In this document: in pieces, positions 2,554 to 33,677 of the stretch
How positions within the stretch are numbered: position 1 is the first letter of the stretch
Layout of the letters: every line of letters starts with the position of its first letter
Origin: a virus
Lineage: Duplodnaviria > Heunggongvirae > Uroviricota > Caudoviricetes
Strand: one strand, 5' to 3'
Length of the DNA stretch: 46,766 nucleotides
IMG/VR virus record: IMGVR_UViG_2877958089_000004
Translations under genes and position numbers: made by a program
Notes under the pieces: generated by a model
Database searches by the model: none
What the model was told of the DNA's origin: nothing
What the model saw: the letters and a program-made list of their open reading frames with translations, nothing else

Positions 2554-2916
2554 ATGTTAAAGCTATTTGCAAAGTACACCTCGATTGGTGTGCTGAACAC
2601 ACTTATACACTGGGTGGTTTTTGGTGTATGTATCTATGCCGCGCATACCAATCAGGCTCTGGCAAACTTCGCAGGTTTTGTTGTGGCTGTGAGTTTTAGC
2701 TTCTTCGCGAATGCAAAATTCACATTCAAAGCATCGACTACAACGATGCGCTACATGTTATATGTCGGGTTCATGGGAACACTGAGTGCAACTATTGGAT
2801 GGGCTGCTGATAGATGTTCACTTCCTCCAATTGTCACTCTCGTCACCTTCTCCGCCATCAGCCTGGTGTGCGGTTTCGTCTATTCAAAGTTCATTGTCTT
2901 TAGGGATGCGAAATGA
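2554..2916 (+). CDS. gtrA: GtrA-family bactoprenol-linked glucose translocase (flippase)
   Basis: 120-aa small 4-TM protein, first gene of a three-gene gtr operon next to the integrase. Confidence 0.85.
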
Positions 2917-3830
2917 AGATATCTCTTGTAGTTCCTGTCTTCAATGAAGAAGAAGCGATACCAATTTTTTATAAAACGGTACGTGAATTCGAAGAGTTGA
3001 AGCCATATGAAGTGGAAATTGTTTTCATAAATGATGGAAGCAAAGACGCTACGGAGTCAATTATTAATGCTATGGCTGTTTCAGATCCCCTAGTTGTTCC
3101 GCTGTCATTTACGCGCAACTTTGGTAAAGAACCAGCATTGTTTGCAGGGTTAGACCATGCAACTGGCGATGCCGTGATTCCAATTGATGTTGACCTGCAA
3201 GACCCGATTGAGGTCATTCCTCATCTTATTGAAAAGTGGCAGGCAGGTGCTGATATGGTGCTGGCAAAGCGTTCAGACCGCTCTACAGATGGACGTCTAA
3301 AGCGAAAAACTGCTGAGTGGTTCTATAAGCTCCACAATAAAATAAGCAACCCAACGATTGAAGAGAATGTTGGTGATTTCCGGTTAATGAGCCGTGAGGT
3401 TGTCGAAAATATCAAGCTTATGCCAGAGCGCAACCTTTTTATGAAAGGGGTACTGAGTTGGGTAGGAGGATCGACCGACATCGTCGAATATTCCCGCGCA
3501 GAACGTGTTGCTGGTAATTCAAAATTCAATGGATGGAAATTGTGGAATCTTGCGCTCGAAGGGATTACAAGCTTCTCAACATTTCCCCTGCGCATATGGA
3601 CTTATATCGGGTTAGTGGTAGCTGTCCTAGCATTTCTGTATGGCGCATGGATGATATTTGACACGCTCGCATTTGGAAATGCTGTACGAGGATACCCTTC
3701 ACTGCTGGTGTCCATTCTGTTTCTTGGAGGAATACAACTAATCGGTATAGGCGTGCTCGGAGAGTATATAGGACGTATCTACATTGAAACAAAATCAAGA
3801 CCTAAATATATTTTGAAGGCCAGAAAATGA
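2913..3830 (+). CDS. gtrB: GtrB bactoprenol glucosyltransferase (family 2 glycosyltransferase)
   Basis: 305 aa; N-terminal GT2 domain (VVPVFNEEE...DGSKD...DVDLQDP) with C-terminal TM segments; start overlaps the gtrA stop. Confidence 0.9.
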
Positions 3831-5257
3831 ATTTCAATTCTTTTTTTAAACAGCGAGTTACTATAATTATAGGATTGGCTTATGCATTGCCTATAGTTTT
3901 GAATGGCATCGATTACATTGATGATATGGGTAGGGCCATATCTGGGTATGGATGGAGTGACGACGGTAGATTTGTATCAACTTTATTAATGCAGATATTG
4001 TCATTTAGCGACAAAGTATTGCCACTTTTCCCTTATGCGACTATATTATCTGTAATAATAACATGCTTTTCAGGATTCATTATTTCAGAATTATTTTTCA
4101 AACATTCTAAATATAAATTTATTTTTTCTTTAGTGTTACTAACATCACCTTTTTTTCTTGAAAACCTATCATACAAGTATGATTCTCTACCTATGTCGCT
4201 TTCTGTTTTAATGGCAATAGTACCTTTTACATTATACAGAAATCATATATTTATCCCGATATCAATACTTTGTCTTGTTGCTGTATTGGGATTGTATCAG
4301 ACTACGTCTATGTTATATTTCGCCGTGACAATATGTATTATCATGTCTTCTGTATTAGACGGTAAAAATAAGACAGAATGTTTTAAATTAGCATGCAAGA
4401 CACTAGTGTCATTTGTTGTTGCATTTTTAATATATAAGTCATTAGTTCTTTTGCTAGCATTAAATGTTCCTCGCTCGCAATTTATAAGCATAAACAGCGA
4501 AATACTTAATTTATTAATAGAAAGAACAAAGCATTTCCATATAATGTTAAAGGCTCTTTTTGATAGTGGGTATTTTATTGCCTCAGCACCATTTGTAATT
4601 CTGTTTGCAATGTCTTTAGTTTATCTTCTGGCATTAAGAAAATCATTAACTATATTTTTCATTATAGTATTATGCTTTATGTCTTTGTTAATATTGACAA
4701 TGATGCCAAATATTTTGCTAAAGGAGATTTTTTACACAGCCAGAACTATGATTTGTTTTCCAGCAATTATTATTGCAATGCTTATAGTTATGGATCGATG
4801 TAAAATTGAAAACGTCAATAAGCTTTGCTTTATATTTGTTATATTATTAGTGAGTTACTCTTTTTCACTATCTGCAAAACTTGGGGCCGTAATAAAAAAT
4901 AACAATGAGGCTAGCAATTACTTTGCGGGAAGAATAACCTCTGATATCTCAACGATAGATTCGTCGGATACTTACAAAATTGTAATCTCTGGTAGAGTAC
5001 CGATTAGCGCTAAAAGCAAGCTATTATATAATGAAACTCCATTTTTAAATTGGCTTGCCCCTGTTTATGCTTCTGGTGGTTGGGGGTGGGGGGTCGTAGA
5101 TCTTTCAAGATATGCAGATTTCAAATGGCAGGAAAATGAAACATTTATCCTACAAAACAAATGCCATATTGCTCCATTATTTAGCAATAAATTTTATGCC
5201 ATAAGAAAGAAAGATAACGTATATATTATAGATTTTAACTACAAAGATTGCATATAG
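3827..5257 (+). CDS. Serotype-specific O-antigen glucosyltransferase (GtrC-type polytopic membrane protein)
   Basis: 476-aa highly hydrophobic protein, strongly AT-rich, third gene of the gtrAB operon, where the variable serotype-specific enzyme lies. Confidence 0.7.
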
Positions 5258-26377: not shown

Positions 26378-26904
26378 GTCTTACCCCCAATAAGGGGATT
26401 TGCTCTATTTAATTAGGAATAAGGTCGATTACTGATAGAACAAATCCAGGCTACTGCGTTTAGTAATCAGATTTGTTCGTGACCGATATGCACGGGCAAA
26501 ACGGCAGGAGGTTGTTAGCGCGACCTCCTGTCACCCGCTTTCACGAAGATCATGTGTAGAAGGCCGCAGCATAACTATCACTGATGAATTCAGGACATCC
26601 AGTGGCTACGGCTCAGTTTGGATTGTGGCGACCGGTGCTGATCTCCGGTTTGCTGCAACTGCCTACAGCGGGCTACGTGGCCACACCGAATCCAGCGAAA
26701 GATTCTTGCCCTTACACATCAGCCTGTGCATTCACCACAACGATAAGAGCACTGCGCGGCACCTTTCACCAATTCCGCGAGGTCTGAGGGTTCAATGCTC
26801 TTACCTGTTGTGCAAACAAAAAAAGCCACCGTTGCAACTTAAGAGTCACTAACGGCAGCTTATGCGAATAGTGTTGCTCATTTGCTCAATGATGTCAACA
26901 CGTT

Positions 26905-27393
26905 CTACGCTACATGTTTAATTTTCTCTACACGTTTCCGGTTTTTAAACGCACTATCCAGAACCGGGTAAATCATAAACAACGAGGCATTGAGGATTTC
27001 GTCAACTTCCCGACGACAGGTTGCGAGCGATGGTTTTTGAATGCGCCCGCCGCCCCGGCATAACATCTTGCGAGGTCTTGCGACGCGATGATAGTAAGAT
27101 GCAATGGCGTGCTTGGAAGAACCGTGGGCGTAGTAGCTGAGGAGGATGCCAAAGGCTTTCTTGTCAATGTACATGACGGAATCGACGACCTGAGAAATCA
27201 ACATTCCATCATCATCATTGCACATCGGCCTTGTCATAACTCTTCCCGGCTCTACGCTCTCCATGAACTTCGCTATTACGCTGCTCATGCGCTTTTCAAG
27301 ACGACCTGAATAAACCCATGCTCCCCACAGTTCAAGCCAGCCATTCAGCCAATCGTGCTGCTCTTTGGTGAGGTTTAGTTCTCTTATGCTCAT
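26905..27393 (-). CDS. Putative late-gene antiterminator (Q-like)
   Basis: 162-aa ORF positioned between ninH/rusA and the lysis cassette, followed by a ~530 bp non-coding region before S; called by position, not by recognised motif. Confidence 0.55.
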   Translation of the reverse strand: MSIRELNLTKEQHDWLNGWLELWGAWVYSGRLEKRMSSVIAKFMESVEPGRVMTRPMCNDDDGMLISQVVDSVMYIDKKAFGILLSYYAHGSSKHAIASYYHRVARPRKMLCRGGGRIQKPSLATCRREVDEILNASLFMIYPVLDSAFKNRKRVEKIKHVA

Positions 27394-29284: not shown

Positions 29285-29815
29285 TCATGCCGCCCTCCTG
29301 GCGCCCTGCCCGATCGCCATCAATGCCGATTTGGATACGGTAGTAAACATCCGTCGAGGACTGATGAACGGTCGCCAAATCAGCAGCATTGAGCCTTTGC
29401 TGTTTCCCTTCTTCTCCAGCCCCGTCGATGGTTCGATAAAATTAATCCGTCCATCAGTGATAATGCGAACTTCGTCGACACTCTCCAGAGCCTTGCTGAA
29501 CCATCCGACTGACATATCCTCTGGCACAAGCATAACTACCGTCTGTCGCTGTTGTATGCTCTGCTCAGCGGCTTTTTCCACCCACGGCCTGATATTGCTG
29601 TACGGTGGGTTATTCCAGATTGCACCGTGGCTTATCCACTCAGAATTGAGTGCGTCGTCGGCCTCAGTTAGCCAGTGAGCGCACAGAGCATTTTTGTCGC
29701 TCGCAGCTGAATCCAGCCAGAATCCAAACTCAATATCCAGCGCATCAAAAAGCCAAAGCGGCGTTTGCCAGCAGTCTCTAACTTCTTTTGGTGTTTCTGA
29801 TTTATGCTTAATCAT
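29285..29815 (-). CDS. dam: Phage orphan DNA N6-adenine methyltransferase (Dam family)
   Basis: 176 aa with catalytic NPPY motif (…[11 protein letters not shown]…) and the N-terminal [12 protein letters not shown] region typical of phage Dam; no adjacent restriction endonuclease gene. Confidence 0.8.
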
Positions 29816-30340
29816 TCAACCCTCGCATATTGTCCGTGATATTTGTTGATAGCCTCACTGGCAACCAAACCAGCAAGCTCAAGATCTTCATAGAACCCAA
29901 AATGCAACCGGCCAAAATCTGTGCGCACTTGAACGGCCCATTTATTTTTTTTGCTTGTTCCATAAAACATTTTTTATTCCAGAACGGCTATTGCACTTAG
30001 TTTTCTGATTTCGGCTGTTTGCTATCCGGCTTGCCTCCCTAAGATTTTTTGGGGAATTGTCCAGCCTGTTTCCGTTAATATGGTCAATATTTTTCAATGG
30101 CATTCTTTTGTTGTGCAGCGCAAAAACAACTACGTGAACAAACATCTGAATGCCTGCAAAACACACCTGTCTATACCCAGATCCATTTATCGATGTTTTA
30201 ATTTCATCTCCGGCCCGGTGGCTGTGGTTGGGGTGTTTTAGCGAGTCCTTTTTGTACCTGACTGTATCTCCGTCTAAATACAGATAATCCTCAATAAGCC
30301 GATACCTATCTGACGCTGGCGTATTTGATTTGATAGTCAT
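29812..30340 (-). pseudogene. HNH (HNH_3) + AP2-domain endonuclease gene, frameshifted at a homopolymer
   Basis: HNH region (…HVVVFALHNKRMPLKNIDHINGNRLDNSPKNL…) ends in a stop inside an 8-nt T run (29945-29952); the AP2-like region (WAVQVRTDFGRLHFGFYEDLELAGLVASEAINKYHG) continues in the +1 frame to a stop overlapping the dam start. Confidence 0.7.
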
Positions 30341-31039: not shown

Positions 31040-31240
31040 TTATGACAGGTTAATTTTCACCCAGCCCTTCCCACGCACATTTGCAACAAGCCCTTTCTTT
31101 CTCAGGTATTGCATACGGCGATCGATGGTTTCGATATACATTCCATTGCTCCGCCATTTAAGCCAGATATCAAAAACAGGTGTTGGTCTTTCACTCAGCA
31201 TTGAAAGAATGTTTTGATCTAATTTTTCGTACTTGCTCAC
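31040..31240 (-). CDS. Hypothetical small protein
   Basis: 66-aa ORF whose start overlaps the stop of the upstream ORF. Confidence 0.45.
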   Translation of the reverse strand: MSKYEKLDQNILSMLSERPTPVFDIWLKWRSNGMYIETIDRRMQYLRKKGLVANVRGKGWVKINLS

Positions 31241-31578
31241 AAATACCCTCTCTCACTTAATCGCGCCCACGCTTCGTTAAACTCATCTCTGGTTGCGCCG
31301 GATTTTCTTTCTTCAAACATCATGCATTCGCTGATGTCTCCCCATGACTTTGGTCGCTTTTCAGCGAACAGATCATCCCATTCGAATACCCAGCGTCCTG
31401 ATTTTCGGTAGTGGTAAATGGTCAGCCATGTTGTGCTGTTCGCTGGATACCCATAGAGAACTTCGACTTTTTGATCACGGTCTTTATGCTTTTTCAGCAG
31501 GATAAAGCCAGCAACCAGCGAAGCTCCGGCAAGAATGATGATTGGAATTTGCCAGTCAGCCACACTTCCCTCTCCCAC
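31237..31578 (-). CDS. Hypothetical protein with N-terminal transmembrane segment
   Basis: 113 aa; hydrophobic segment IPIIILAGASLVAGFILL followed by a soluble domain. Confidence 0.45.
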   Translation of the reverse strand: MGEGSVADWQIPIIILAGASLVAGFILLKKHKDRDQKVEVLYGYPANSTTWLTIYHYRKSGRWVFEWDDLFAEKRPKSWGDISECMMFEERKSGATRDEFNEAWARLSERGYL

Positions 31579-31610
31579 AAATAAAAAGGCCTGCGATTAC
31601 CAGCAGGCCT

Positions 31611-32222
31611 TTATCTGTTTTTAACACGCTTTCGAGTCCTTTTAGATTTTTCCTTAAGATATTCCGCAAGTTTATCCTCATCATTATTAAATTGAGATAA
31701 AAGCTCATGCTCGCAATTAAGTGCTTTACTCGCATAAGTTCCATATAGTTTCTTTCTTGCTAGTGCTGCTATGAATGCTGCATCTTCTTTGCTATCGAAA
31801 TACCCTAACGATATTGTCTTATTTTTATAACCAACATAAGACTTCCACCTGCCAGTTGGCTTATACCAAGACACTCCAATTGCACCGGATGTGTTTAATC
31901 TATTCCCTACAATGTTTCTTGCATTCTGCTCTTCTGTTGCCAGTCTTAGATTTGAAATCCTATTGTCAAGTCTGTTCCCATTTACATGATCAATAAACTT
32001 AGGAGGCCATTTTTTGTATACATAGAACCAAGCAAGTCTATGCGCATAATACAAAACATTATTTATGCTAATGCATATATAACCACCACTAACACCTCCA
32101 GCAATACTACCTTTTACTCTTACTACTGAATTTGTTTTTAGCCATTTAAATATTCCTGTTTCTGAGTCATATGATAATGTTGACAGAAGCTCATCGTGAT
32201 CAATTAGTTTTTTTATTCGCAT
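31611..32222 (-). CDS. HNH (HNH_3) + AP2-domain homing endonuclease-like protein
   Basis: 203 aa; HNH region (…YAHRLAWFYVYKKWPPKFIDHVNGNRLDNRISNLRLAT…) followed by AP2-like region (GVSWYKPTGRWKSYVGYKNKTISLGYFDSKEDAAFIAALARKKLYG); locally AT-rich. Confidence 0.75.
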   Translation of the reverse strand: MRIKKLIDHDELLSTLSYDSETGIFKWLKTNSVVRVKGSIAGGVSGGYICISINNVLYYAHRLAWFYVYKKWPPKFIDHVNGNRLDNRISNLRLATEEQNARNIVGNRLNTSGAIGVSWYKPTGRWKSYVGYKNKTISLGYFDSKEDAAFIAALARKKLYGTYASKALNCEHELLSQFNNDEDKLAEYLKEKSKRTRKRVKNR

Positions 32223-32300
32223 AAAGAATATAATTAATAATATATACAGTAAGAACCATTAGTAACGATAACCCTGCTATTAGCTCAGTGACGTAGATGG

Positions 32301-33677
32301 TCATACGTCCGCCCCTTGTGCATATCGTCTGCCACGCGCAGCAGGTGCATTTGATGCTGTGCAAATCTGTCTGGCTTCATCCTGGTCACATGCAACAAAG
32401 TGTCCGTTGCAGAACCGCTGGTAAACCGTACCAAGCGAGCCAAAACGGTTTTTCGTCACGATGATTTCAGCAAATGGCGCGGCGCTACTGTTCTCGTCAT
32501 ATACCGCTTCCCGATAGAGCATGATGATTGAGTCTGCGTCCTGTTCAATGCTTCCTGAATCACGCAAATCTGCGTTTGTCGGGCGTTTGTTTGGTCGCTT
32601 CTCAACATCGCGCGAAAGCTGACTTAGGGAGATAACAGGCGTTTTCAGGTCTTTCGCCATCGCCTTCAGGCTTCCGGAGATGTGAGCAATTGCTAGGTCG
32701 TTGCGGTCTGCTTTCGGCTTCTCAATCAGGCCAAGATAATCCGCCATGATGAGTGACAGGTTTGGATTTTCCTGTTTGTGCCGTTCTGCGATTGAGCGTA
32801 TTTCTTCGACCGATAACCGCGAGGCATCGACCACCCATACATCCAAATCTGCAAGCTGACTCATGCCGTTAGCAACGCGCGCCCAGCCTTCGTCATCCAT
32901 CGATGCAGGATTTCGCAGTACGCTAACCGACATCCTCCCGGCGTTGGCAATGCTTCGCTCTGCAATCTGCAATGCGCTCATTTCCATTGAGAAAATCAAT
33001 ACCCCGCGCCGGACGTCAGAACCAGGAATAACGCGGCTTGCAACGCCTTCGGCAATCTTCAGCGCCAGTTCGGTTTTCCCCATACCAGGACGAGCGGCGA
33101 TAATCACCAGGTCTTCCGCGTTCATCCCTCCGGTGATGGCATCAAGTTCTTCGATTCCGGTCTTCAGGGTATCGGACTCTTCTCCGTTCCTCAGACGCCT
33201 GTCAAGCGTGTCAGTGTAGTCAGTGATGATTTCCCCTAACCGTACCGGTTTAACCTCGTCACGGGGCTTTCTGATGGCTGAGAGACGCTTTACAAGCTCA
33301 TCCATCGCCTGACTCGATGCGTCGATGGTTCCGCTCTGAATTGGTTCACGCATTTCATCCATGATTTCCAGCACCAGACGGCGGTGATAGTTATCCGCGA
33401 CCATTCCGGCATATCCCTTCAGGTTTGCGGCGCTCGGGCAGTTTTTGCTGGTCATCAGGATTGACGTGAAATGCTCCTCTCCGCACGCCTCGGCAACCAT
33501 CATCGCGTCGATTAGTTTTCTGTTTCGCGCCTGCTTGCGGATAACCTCGAAGGCTTTCCGGTAGAGCGGAATTGAAAACGCTTCCGGCTCAAGCGTTGCC
33601 AGAACGTCACTGGCAGTTGGTGTTAATCCACCAATCAGCAGGCCACCGATAACGCTCGCTTCGATATCCTGTCTCAT
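32301..33677 (-). CDS. Replicative DNA helicase (DnaB family; P22 gene 12-like)
   Basis: 458 aa; Walker A ([17 protein letters not shown]) and DnaB-type C-terminal region; follows the O-like initiator. Confidence 0.9.

What the first reader, a model, noticed from the sequence alone, without database searches (positions are those of the whole stretch)
31611..32222. Second, intact HNH-AP2 endonuclease in an AT-rich insert between helicase and nin genes
The nin/replication region carries two paralogous HNH_3 + AP2 genes, this intact one and the frameshifted one at 29812-30340. The intact copy is markedly AT-rich relative to its neighbours, consistent with a recently acquired selfish element.
Basis: partly seen in the sequence, partly recalled or inferred. 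Interest (0 to 1): 0.4.

Follow-up and report, generated by a model that had tools for sequence, protein, structure and literature searches.

The report
Mobile HNH-AP2 nuclease gene in prophage
This is an ordinary, already catalogued selfish nuclease gene (a free-standing HNH-AP2 homing-endonuclease cassette, the same one as in phage HK022 and several Shiga-toxin phages) inserted at one fixed spot, inside a tiny terminator module just after the replication genes of an E. coli P22-like prophage.

Summary
Window 31611-32222 (-) is an intact 203-aa ORF with an HNH_3 domain, an AP2 DNA-binding domain and all family-invariant catalytic residues. It lies in a ~657-bp insert of 33.5% GC (window mean 46.6%). 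The same cassette (98-99.8% identical) occurs in 126 of 5426 complete E. coli genomes, in phage HK022 (gp57) and in Stx phages 1717, PA28 and SH2026Stx1. It always interrupts the same ~77-bp ninA/tR2 terminator module, whatever gene lies upstream (two DnaB-type helicases, or lambda ren) or downstream. The uninterrupted module is about 20 times more common (~2870 places, 1976 genomes), and one empty allele (strain SK1402) has the same flanks as the window. One correction: the two HNH genes share only 33% protein identity. They are independent insertions of the same family, not a recent duplication. Copy 2 is broken only by one extra A (A8 vs A7), seen in none of 34 other genomes. Homing activity and the target site are inferred, not shown. 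The gene is already in public records as an HNH or homing endonuclease, so novelty and interest are low.

The parts
31611..32222 (-). Intact HNH-AP2 endonuclease gene (203 aa). HNH motif residues 58-102 = nt 31917-32051; predicted general-base His79 = nt 31986-31988; AP2 domain residues 114-161 = nt 31740-31883; C-terminal basic helices.
   Evidence: (invariant H61, D78, H79, N87, R93, N103 all present).
31614..32272 (.). The inserted cassette (~657 bp, GC 0.335), absent from empty-site alleles. The left boundary is ambiguous by ~9 nt (32273-32281) because of imperfect microhomology ATA(G/A)CAGG / ATAAAGG at the two ends.
   Evidence: Alignments with the empty alleles SK1402 and Nil2 and with filled alleles in four backgrounds; BLAST break points at query 615/1273; composition.
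32200..32304 (-). Hybrid micro-ORF ninA' (34 aa, [34 protein letters not shown]). Its ATG (32304) overlaps the helicase stop (ATGA). The first ~23-32 nt are the native ninA 5' end and the rest is cassette sequence. It overlaps the HNH start codon by 23 nt in another frame.
   Evidence: Annotated as a separate small CDS in HK022 (HK022_56) and SH2026Stx1 (gp28).
31575..31612 (-). tR2 intrinsic terminator (10-bp stem AAAGGCCTGC/GCAGGCCTTT, 8-nt loop, T tract), kept intact immediately 3' of the HNH stop codon. In empty alleles it lies inside the 25-27-codon ninA ORF.
   Evidence: Terminator scan; annotated 'tR2 terminator' and 'ninA' in phage Nil2; alignment.
32301..33677 (-). DnaB-type replicative helicase: upstream neighbour and presumed source of read-through transcription (early right operon). 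Not part of the mobile unit.
   Evidence: Pfam DnaB_C 9.4e-78. In other phages the upstream gene is replaced by HK022 P or lambda ren.
31237..31578 (-). Downstream neighbour (phrog_5903, unknown function). Not part of the mobile unit; differs between cassette-bearing phages.
29812..30340 (-). Second HNH-AP2 gene (copy 2), frameshifted by an extra A at 29945-29952. An independent cassette inserted between ninB and dam. Its first 9 codons (30314-30340) are dam's native first 9 codons.
29777..29815 (-). Replacement N-terminus of dam ([13 protein letters not shown]), supplied by the 3' end of the copy-2 cassette. Native alleles read MTIKSNTPAHDK before the shared DCWQTP.

Best explanation
The gene is a free-standing homing-endonuclease gene (HEG) of the HNH-AP2 family, carried on a ~657-bp AT-rich cassette. 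The cassette sits inside the short ninA/tR2 module that links the replication genes to the nin region in lambdoid phages.

Shown by sequence:
- The cassette occupies one fixed point, after about the first 8-10 codons of the ninA micro-ORF and immediately 5' of the tR2 hairpin.
- It is present in about 5% of such modules.
- It is nearly identical across phages whose flanking genes are unrelated.
- It keeps every conserved catalytic residue.

Inferred:
- It has no promoter of its own. It is transcribed by read-through from the early-right (pR) operon, ahead of tR2, so it is silent in the lysogen and made early after induction or infection without needing antitermination at tR2.
- It has no Shine-Dalgarno sequence, so it is probably translated by coupling to the ninA' micro-ORF, which is itself coupled to the helicase by an ATGA overlap.
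- The AP2 domain positions the HNH nuclease on an uninterrupted ninA/tR2 module of a co-infecting or co-resident lambdoid phage. The nuclease nicks or cuts there.
- Recombinational repair (phage Rad52/Erf-type, NinB and RusA functions are encoded in the same prophage) copies the cassette in, using the short conserved ninA and tR2 arms or longer flanks.
- The filled allele is immune because the insertion splits the sequence GAGCT(T/A)(G/A)TAACAGGCCTGC.

Copy 2 is a second, distantly related HEG of the same family that did the same thing at the 5' end of dam.
For: - Domains, fold and catalytic residues.
- Presence/absence: cassette in 126 of 5426 genomes (138 places), intact module at ~2870 places in 1976 genomes.
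- Empty allele with the same flanks, SK1402.
- Identical junctions downstream of three unrelated genes: this helicase, HK022 P and lambda-type ren.
- Right junction present in 126 of 126 cassette-bearing genomes; full left junction in 109 of 124.
- Cassette 98.2-99.8% identical everywhere, while the next protein relative is a 62% chimera and the others are 50% or less.
- GC 0.335 and GC3 0.245.
- Decayed copies, as expected late in a HEG life cycle: split ORFs and an IS1203 insertion.
- No minus-strand promoter in the cassette, and tR2 retained 3' of the gene.
- A different occupant in phage TL-2011a uses a different point, upstream of the ninA ATG, so the intra-ninA point is specific to this cassette.
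- Phage PA28's depositors already call the gene 'homing endonuclease'.
- HNH+AP2 is a described HEG family, and AP2 domains favour GC-rich DNA (PMC10448857, citing Magnani et al. 2004).
Against: - No nuclease activity, cleavage site or biased inheritance has been shown for this protein, here or in any paper I found.
- The conserved arms are short (23-32 nt left, ~55 nt right), so plain homologous recombination at this conserved linker could spread the cassette passively.
- Among the four alleles aligned, the flanking polymorphisms show no co-conversion pattern.
- Some genomes appear to hold both filled and empty modules. This is expected if the gene is silent in lysogens, but it does not support efficient homing.
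- AP2 scores below Pfam's gathering threshold, although the fold match makes up for this.
Confidence: 0.65

Rival explanations
1. Passive cargo: the cassette moves between lambdoid phages only by ordinary homologous recombination at the conserved ninA and tR2 sequences, which are classic mosaic 'linker' boundaries. The nuclease does not drive its own spread. It may cut elsewhere, for example to stimulate recombination generally or to damage competing phages.
For: The ninA/tR2 module is conserved at 95-100% identity in ~2870 places next to many different genes, so it is a natural crossover point. The same junction region accepts other cargo, such as the 89-aa ORF in TL-2011a. A chimeric HNH gene (L013) shows that these genes recombine. 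The literature notes 'sporadic HNH nuclease genes' in lambdoid phages without assigning roles (PMC12315714).
Against: The insertion point lies inside the module, not at its edges, and splits it in the same way in every background. The composition is strongly foreign. The nuclease motif is fully conserved and about 90% of sampled copies are intact, which fits selection on nuclease-driven spread.
Confidence: 0.22
2. A domesticated phage function: an HNH protein that assists terminase in DNA packaging (HK97 gp74 type), or a defence or superinfection-exclusion nuclease that benefits the prophage or host.
For: HNH proteins are known packaging cofactors in some phages (Kala et al. 2014, cited in PMC12315714). 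A weak PADLOC hit exists, but only to a model named 'homing endonuclease' (E=7.6e-4).
Against: The gene lies in the early operon, about 12 kb or more from the packaging genes. The host phage is P22-like, and the same cassette sits in siphovirus HK022 and in podoviral Stx phages with different packaging systems. About 95% of otherwise similar phages lack it, so it is dispensable. Its architecture is HNH_3+AP2, not the small terminase-associated HNH. There is no defence-system match.
Confidence: 0.05
3. A DNA-binding regulator: the AP2 domain is the functional part, for example binding at the GC-rich tR2 stem to modulate termination, and the nuclease is vestigial.
For: The AP2 domain is well modelled and resembles sequence-specific plant AP2/ERF domains. 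The gene abuts a terminator. Phage and satellite proteins have co-opted HEG DNA-binding domains as repressors (PMC10448857).
Against: All invariant HNH residues (D78-H79, N87, N103 and others) are retained in this protein and across 55 aligned relatives. The distribution is sporadic, as for a parasite, not conserved as for a regulator.
Confidence: 0.04
4. The two HNH genes of this prophage arose by a recent duplication within the genome (a literal reading of 'paralogous copies').
For: Both hit HNH_3 and phrog_99 and have the same orientation 1.3 kb apart.
Against: They share only 33% protein identity over 129 aa. They differ in GC (0.34 vs 0.42). They have different insertion sites, each with its own empty alleles, and different distributions: 126 vs 34 genomes, and copy 2 is absent from phage records.
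Confidence: 0.01

Closest known systems
HK022 gp57 (HK022_57) and the 'HNH / homing endonuclease' genes of Stx phages 1717, PA28, SH2026Stx1 and Stx2a_WGPS4/6; RefSeq WP_015980142.1
   Same: It is the same gene. The 657-bp cassette is 98.6-99.8% identical, with the same 612-bp ORF, the same ninA' micro-ORF upstream and the same tR2 hairpin downstream.
   Different: Only the surrounding phage differs. Here it is a P22-like prophage with a DnaB-type helicase; HK022 is a siphovirus with its own P gene; PA28 has lambda-type O-P-ren. I found no experimental work on any of these copies.
HNH-AP2 homing endonuclease family (Magnani et al. 2004, as cited in PMC10448857; 'IPA-HNH' HEGs of vibriophage ICP1)
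   Same: An N-terminal HNH nuclease plus a C-terminal AP2 DNA-binding domain. The genes are free-standing in phage genomes, next to essential replication genes, sporadically distributed, and include frameshifted copies (one search compared).
   Different: This protein matches the canonical HNH_3 profile strongly, whereas the ICP1 genes do not. It is only 50% or less identical to other family members in the protein database. Its site is a terminator/micro-ORF module rather than a protein-coding target.
I-HmuI (phage SPO1 intron-encoded HNH homing endonuclease, PDB 1U3E)
   Same: It is the best solved-structure match for the N-terminal beta-sheet plus the beta-beta-alpha-metal nuclease half (Foldseek prob 1.00, 109 columns; weak sequence match E=0.35).
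   Different: I-HmuI is intron-encoded, uses different C-terminal DNA-binding modules (no AP2) and shares only 19% identity. From general knowledge it is a nicking enzyme. Whether this protein nicks or cuts both strands is unknown.
T4-type free-standing HEGs (SegG, SegE, MobE): intronless homing and marker exclusion
   Same: A stand-alone nuclease gene between or within genes, spread by cleavage of the HEG-less allele and recombinational repair in mixed infections (references listed in PMC10448857). This is the mechanism proposed here.
   Different: The nuclease families differ (GIY-YIG for Seg), and those are lytic phages. Here the carriers are temperate lambdoid phages and the gene should be silent in the prophage state.
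Phage epsilon34 gene 31 (in-frame fusion of an eaE-like N-terminus to an HNH homing endonuclease; PMC2629481)
   Same: It parallels copy 2 of this window, whose ORF starts with the first 9 codons of the gene it invaded, dam (one search compared).
   Different: The target gene and operon differ. Copy 2 also brings a replacement N-terminus that restores dam.

Membership tests
HNH (His-Me finger) endonucleases, Pfam HNH_3 (PF13392) | Profile match above the curated threshold | tested here: met
   57.8 bits against a cut-off of 24.8, E=8.2e-16, full-length domain 1-46/46; phrog_99 at 6.7e-72.
HNH (His-Me finger) endonucleases, Pfam HNH_3 (PF13392) | Conserved catalytic His (general base) and metal-ligand Asn/His residues | tested here: met
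   D78-H79, N87, N103 (plus H61, R93) are invariant across 55 aligned relatives and present in this protein. Their catalytic roles are assigned by analogy, not measured.
HNH (His-Me finger) endonucleases, Pfam HNH_3 (PF13392) | Beta-beta-alpha-metal fold | tested here: met
   The AF2 model (pLDDT 89.5) has strands 76-79 and 92-95 followed by helix 97-101. Its best nuclease match is I-HmuI 1U3E (prob 1.00). This is a predicted structure only.
HNH (His-Me finger) endonucleases, Pfam HNH_3 (PF13392) | Metal-dependent DNA nicking or cleavage | not testable with these tools
   Needs purified protein.
AP2 DNA-binding domain (PF00847) | Profile match above the curated threshold | tested here: not met
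   28.7 bits against a cut-off of 33.3 (E=1.6e-6). The precomputed Pfam annotation of the near-identical cluster representative P0001 does list PF00847.
AP2 DNA-binding domain (PF00847) | Three-stranded sheet packed on a helix, superposable on solved AP2/ERF domains | tested here: met
   Model strands 117-120, 125-132 and 135-142 plus helix 145-163. TEM1 AP2 rmsd 1.1-1.5 A over 48-55 columns with prob 1.00; AtERF1 TMt 0.70. Sequence match to WRI1 at E=3.3e-3.
Free-standing homing endonuclease gene (HEG) | Presence/absence polymorphism at one site among close relatives, with clean empty-site alleles | tested here: met
   138 filled places against ~2870 intact modules. SK1402 is an empty allele with the same flanks.
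Free-standing homing endonuclease gene (HEG) | Same insertion point in genomes whose flanking genes are otherwise unrelated, meaning horizontal spread independent of the flanks | tested here: met
   Identical junctions after this helicase, HK022 P and ren. Right junction 126/126 genomes, left junction 109/124.
Free-standing homing endonuclease gene (HEG) | The insertion disrupts the recognition or cleavage site so that the carrier is immune | tested here: inconclusive
   The insertion splits the ninA/tR2 sequence, but the recognition site is unknown.
Free-standing homing endonuclease gene (HEG) | Enzyme cleaves the HEG-less allele; nuclease-dependent super-Mendelian inheritance with co-conversion of flanks | not testable with these tools
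   Needs biochemistry and phage crosses. The four-allele flank comparison was uninformative.
Free-standing homing endonuclease gene (HEG) | Degenerating copies in some lineages (HEG life cycle) | tested here: met
   Split or truncated copies in strains 350, MS 196-1 and LR882978, and an IS1203 insertion. Copy 2 is frameshifted here.
Terminase-associated HNH packaging factor (HK97 gp74 type) | Gene adjacent to the terminase/portal genes, and required by phages of that packaging type | tested here: not met
   It is located in the early-right operon between the helicase and the nin genes. It is present in only about 5% of sites and in phages with different packaging systems.

The most novel reading that the evidence does not exclude
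The cassette may be a homing endonuclease whose natural target is not a protein-coding gene but the ninA/tR2 intrinsic-terminator module, a ~77-bp 'universal linker' shared by otherwise unrelated lambdoid replication and nin modules. The AP2 domain would read the GC-rich terminator stem. By cutting there, the element could hop between phages that share nothing else. It would also place itself ahead of the terminator, gaining antitermination-independent early expression, and would create a recombination hotspot that helps to generate the well-known mosaic boundary between replication and nin regions, including in Shiga-toxin phages. A related design point: both HNH cassettes in this prophage hijack the first ~9-10 codons and the translational coupling of the ORF they invade.
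Probability: 0.35. Interest if true: 0.4.

Novelty: already known. Interest (0 to 1): 0.2.

Why it matters
It matters little beyond annotation hygiene. The gene is already in public records (HK022 gp57; 'HNH/homing endonuclease' in Stx phages; RefSeq WP_015980142.1), and HNH-AP2 homing endonucleases are a described family.

What this check adds is a precise, quantified description of the insertion site: inside the ninA/tR2 module, at about 5% occupancy, with identical junctions in at least three unrelated upstream contexts. It also corrects the idea that the two HNH genes are recent duplicates.

If the enzyme does target the terminator module, HK022 and lambda-type phages would give an easy genetic system for studying homing in temperate phages and its contribution to mosaicism at the replication/nin boundary of Stx phages.

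Tried and rejected
1. Degenerate duplicate of the target. I asked whether the cassette's 5' part is a diverged copy of the ninA/tR2 sequence. By hand count it matches 17 of 34 positions, but 8 of those are the shared junction microhomology and the remainder is about 35%, not above chance. Dropped.

2. Programmed frameshift joining ninA' to HNH at the A7 run (32208-32214). The HNH frame is +1 relative to ninA', not -1, and the ATG at 32222 is the first start after a stop. Dropped.

3. A third HNH gene between Q and holin, as in GF131. It is absent from the window, which has a different Q/holin segment.

4. Defence-system membership. PADLOC gave only a marginal hit, to a model itself named 'homing endonuclease'. 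NCBIfam gave nothing.

5. Origin in another species. The one-genome-per-species scan found the close form only in E. coli. The protein search found a gap from 98% or more straight to a 62% chimera and then 50% or less. No donor lineage was identified.

6. Co-conversion signal in the last 150 nt of the helicase. HNH+ SH2026Stx1 and HNH- Nil2 are identical there, so this was uninformative.

7. The junction as a generic insertion hotspot. The TL-2011a occupant uses a different point, upstream of the ninA ATG.

8. Literature on this specific cassette. I found none, only generic remarks on sporadic, apparently mobile HNH genes in lambdoid phages.

Full report

Yes. ORF 31611..32222 on the minus strand encodes 203 aa from the first ATG after a stop.
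- Pfam gives HNH_3 at E=8.2e-16 (57.8 bits, cut-off 24.8; residues 58-102). AP2 scores E=1.6e-6 (28.7 bits, below the 33.3-bit cut-off; residues 114-161).
- PHROGs places the whole protein in phrog_99 'HNH endonuclease' (6.7e-72).
- Because AP2 was sub-threshold, I modelled the protein with 54 homologues (AlphaFold2, mean pLDDT 89.5, pTM 0.75) and searched the PDB.
- Residues ~117-163 superpose on plant AP2/ERF domains (TEM1 rmsd 1.1-1.5 A, prob 1.00; AtERF1 GCC-box domain TMt 0.70). The N-terminal half matches the HNH homing endonuclease I-HmuI (prob 1.00, 109 columns).
- In the 55-sequence alignment the invariant columns are Y18, G23, H61, R62, L63, W65, P73, D78, H79, N87, R93, N103 and A148. 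All are present here, so the nuclease motif looks intact.

The AT-richness is also real.
- The insert has GC 0.335 against a window mean of 0.466 (z = -2.9).
- Only the gtrABC serotype-conversion genes at the other end of the prophage are lower.
- GC3 is 0.245, against 0.562 for the neighbouring helicase.

**2. What is the window?**

It is an E. coli P22-like prophage. It carries integrase, gtrABC and a tailspike at the left end, and P22-type portal, coat and gp10 genes. Its nearest complete-genome relative across this region is E. coli GF131, at 99.8% over 2 kb.

**3. Insert boundaries and empty sites**

Many public records match the 2-kb query in two abutting pieces, leaving out window ~31615-32272.
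- E. coli SK1402 has the same helicase and the same three downstream genes, with nothing in between.
- Phage Nil2 has the same helicase, and its depositors annotated the junction as a 25-codon 'ninA' ORF containing the 'tR2 terminator'.
- In gene orientation the empty site reads ATGACCATCTACATCACTGAGCT(T/A)(G/A)TAACAGGCCTGCTGGTAATCGCAGGCCTTTTTATTTGGGGGAGAGGGAAGTG.
- In the window the first ~23-32 nt are retained. These run from the ninA ATG at 32304, which overlaps the helicase stop as ATGA. About 657 bp of AT-rich DNA follow.
- The complete tR2 hairpin resumes immediately after the HNH stop codon (…AGATAA|AGGCCTGCTGG…).
- The two ends share an imperfect 7-9-nt microhomology, ATA(G/A)CAGG and ATAAAGG, so the boundary is ambiguous by that much.
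- The terminator scan independently calls the hairpin at 31612-31585 (10-bp stem, T tract). It finds no minus-strand promoter inside the cassette.

**4. Distribution**
- The 657-bp cassette is in 126 of 5426 complete E. coli genomes (138 places, 98.2-99.8% identity).
- It is in 19 phage records, including HK022 (99.8%; genes HK022_56 and HK022_57), Stx2 phage 1717, PA28 (annotated 'homing endonuclease'), SH2026Stx1 and Stx2a_WGPS4/6.
- The uninterrupted 77-bp module is found at 2874 places in 1976 genomes. Of these, 1877 genomes have at least 80% coverage. Occupancy is therefore about 5%.
- The flanks vary. Upstream is this DnaB-type helicase (window, SH2026Stx1), the different HK022 P gene, or lambda-type ren (PA28). 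The downstream genes differ too.
- In every background, homology starts exactly at the ninA ATG and resumes at tR2.
- An 80-nt probe across the right junction is fully covered in 126 genomes, that is, in all carriers. A 77-nt probe across the left junction is covered in 109 of 124, under features annotated either 'replicative DNA helicase' or 'protein ren'.
- A different small gene in phage TL-2011a is inserted upstream of the ninA ATG and leaves the module intact. The intra-ninA point is therefore specific to this cassette.
- Some copies are decaying: split HNH/AP2 ORFs, truncations and an IS1203 insertion.
- At the protein level this form is a tight cluster (521 member sequences at 90% or more). 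The next relative, at 62%, is itself a chimera (see section 7), and everything else is 50% or less.
- Among one genome per species, only E. coli has the close form.

**5. How it most likely works**

The sequence shows a site-specific, sporadically distributed, compositionally foreign cassette with an intact HNH-AP2 gene, moving independently of its flanks. That is the population signature of a free-standing homing endonuclease gene.

The following steps are inferred.
- Transcription is by read-through from the early-right operon. The gene lies upstream of tR2, so it should be made early and without antitermination at tR2, and should be silent in the repressed prophage.
- There is no Shine-Dalgarno sequence before the ATG (upstream sequence ACTGTATATATTATTAATTATATTCTTT).
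- The ATG lies inside the 34-codon ninA' ORF. That ORF has an AAGGGG upstream and an ATGA overlap with the helicase. Translational coupling is therefore plausible.
- The target is probably the uninterrupted ninA/tR2 module itself, because it is the only sequence common to all contexts.
- The insertion splits that sequence, which would make carriers immune.
- AP2 domains favour GC-rich DNA (PMC10448857, citing Magnani et al. 2004), and the tR2 stem is the only GC-rich element in the module. This link is speculative.
- Repair would use phage recombination functions. A Rad52-family protein, NinB and RusA are annotated in the near-identical GF131 prophage.

None of the cleavage, immunity or biased-inheritance steps has been tested. 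I found no paper on this gene. The Casjens-laboratory survey only remarks on 'sporadic HNH nuclease genes' and their 'apparent mobility' in lambdoid phages (PMC12315714).

**6. Rivals**
- **Passive spread.** The main rival is spread by ordinary recombination at this highly conserved linker, with the nuclease doing something else. It cannot be excluded without experiments. It fits less well with an insertion point inside the module and with the well-preserved nuclease motif.
- **Packaging-cofactor or defence role.** This is unlikely. The gene is in the wrong location, is dispensable in ~95% of relatives, occurs in phages with different packaging systems, and has no defence-system match.
- **Pure DNA-binding regulator.** This is unlikely given the conserved catalytic residues.

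**7. The second copy and the 'paralogue' claim**

The gene at 29812-30340 is real and broken.
- Compared with GF131's intact 528-bp gene, it has one extra A in a homopolymer (A8 vs A7 at 29945-29952). It is otherwise 100% identical over 571 nt.
- All 34 complete genomes that carry it show a one-base gap relative to the window, and the top hits are annotated as intact genes.
- The frameshift is therefore private to this sequence or is a homopolymer sequencing error.

It is not a duplicate of copy 1.
- The two proteins share 33% identity over 129 aa.
- GC differs (0.42 vs 0.34).
- Copy 2 has its own insertion site between ninB and dam. Hundreds of genomes have ninB and dam directly adjacent, and copy 2 has no match in the phage-record collection.

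Its junctions are instructive.
- The ORF begins with dam's own first nine codons (MTIKSNTPA).
- The cassette ends with a diverged replacement start for dam ([13 protein letters not shown], then the shared DCWQTP…).
- The native alleles read MTIKSNTPAHDK-DCWQTP. About 1,335 genomes lose homology exactly at dam codon 14.
- This resembles the eaE-HNH in-frame fusion noted in phage epsilon34 (PMC2629481). It also mirrors copy 1's takeover of the first ninA codons.

The 62% relative of copy 1 (Logan contig, locus L013) is a chimera.
- The ninA' ORF and the first ~250 nt of the gene are identical to this cassette.
- The remainder is a different, GC-richer HNH-AP2 gene that abuts rusA.
- The intervening nin genes are absent.
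- This is either recombination between two HNH genes or an assembly artefact.

**8. Comparison with what is known, and verdict**

The gene is the same as HK022 gp57 and as the HNH or homing endonuclease genes of several Stx phages. It belongs by domain content and predicted fold to the described HNH-AP2 homing endonuclease family. Its HEG membership is met on all the comparative-genomic criteria and untested on the biochemical ones.

Novelty is 'already known'. The fixed ninA/tR2 insertion site and its ~5% occupancy are, as far as my searches went, not described in the literature, but they are a modest addition. Interest is 0.2.

Noticed in passing
window 29777-29815 and 30314-30340 (minus strand): HNH copy 2 starts with dam's native first 9 codons. 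Its cassette ends with a diverged replacement N-terminus for dam, so the invaded gene stays intact. The 91-nt probe that covers this replacement N-terminus is at least 80% covered in 42 genomes, while ~1,335 others lose homology exactly at dam codon 14.
   Followed up: yes
window 29945-29952: The copy-2 frameshift is a single extra A (A8 vs A7). None of the 34 complete E. coli genomes that carry this gene has it, so it may be a homopolymer sequencing error rather than real decay. Copy 1 also has an A7 run at codons 3-5 (32208-32214).
   Followed up: partly
L013 3920-4516 (Logan SRR10380363 contig): A chimeric HNH gene. The ninA' ORF and the first ~250 nt are identical to the copy-1 cassette, then the sequence switches to a different GC-richer HNH-AP2 gene that overlaps rusA, with all nin genes in between missing. 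This looks like a deletion by recombination between two HNH genes, or an assembly chimera.
   Followed up: partly
L005 15009-15500 (E. coli GF131); window 26393-26905 is the corresponding gap: The closest relative's prophage has a third HNH endonuclease gene between the Q antiterminator and holin. The window has a different Q/holin segment and lacks it.
   Followed up: no
L004 1581-1850 and 1847-4018 (phage TL-2011a): An unrelated 89-aa ORF is inserted between the helicase stop and the ninA ATG. In the same phage, the DnaB-type helicase carries an intein-like insertion in its P-loop (GMGK|…HN|TELALK).
   Followed up: no
window 32282-32304 and 31556-31612; empty alleles L001 ~2060-2135, L003 1500-1577: The ninA micro-ORF (25-27 codons) is chained by overlaps. 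Its ATG overlaps the helicase stop, the tR2 hairpin lies inside its coding sequence, and in empty alleles its stop overlaps the next gene's GTG. It is conserved at 95-100% identity at ~2870 places next to many different genes, so it is a candidate recombination 'linker'.
   Followed up: partly
window 2554-5257: The gtrA/gtrB/gtrC O-antigen glucosylation genes, next to the integrase, are the only part of the window more AT-rich than the HNH cassette (GC down to 0.28).
   Followed up: partly
L008 2315-3850 (E. coli strain 350): A decayed copy of the cassette: the HNH and AP2 parts are annotated as separate fragments, and an IS1203 element has replaced the upstream replication genes.
   Followed up: no
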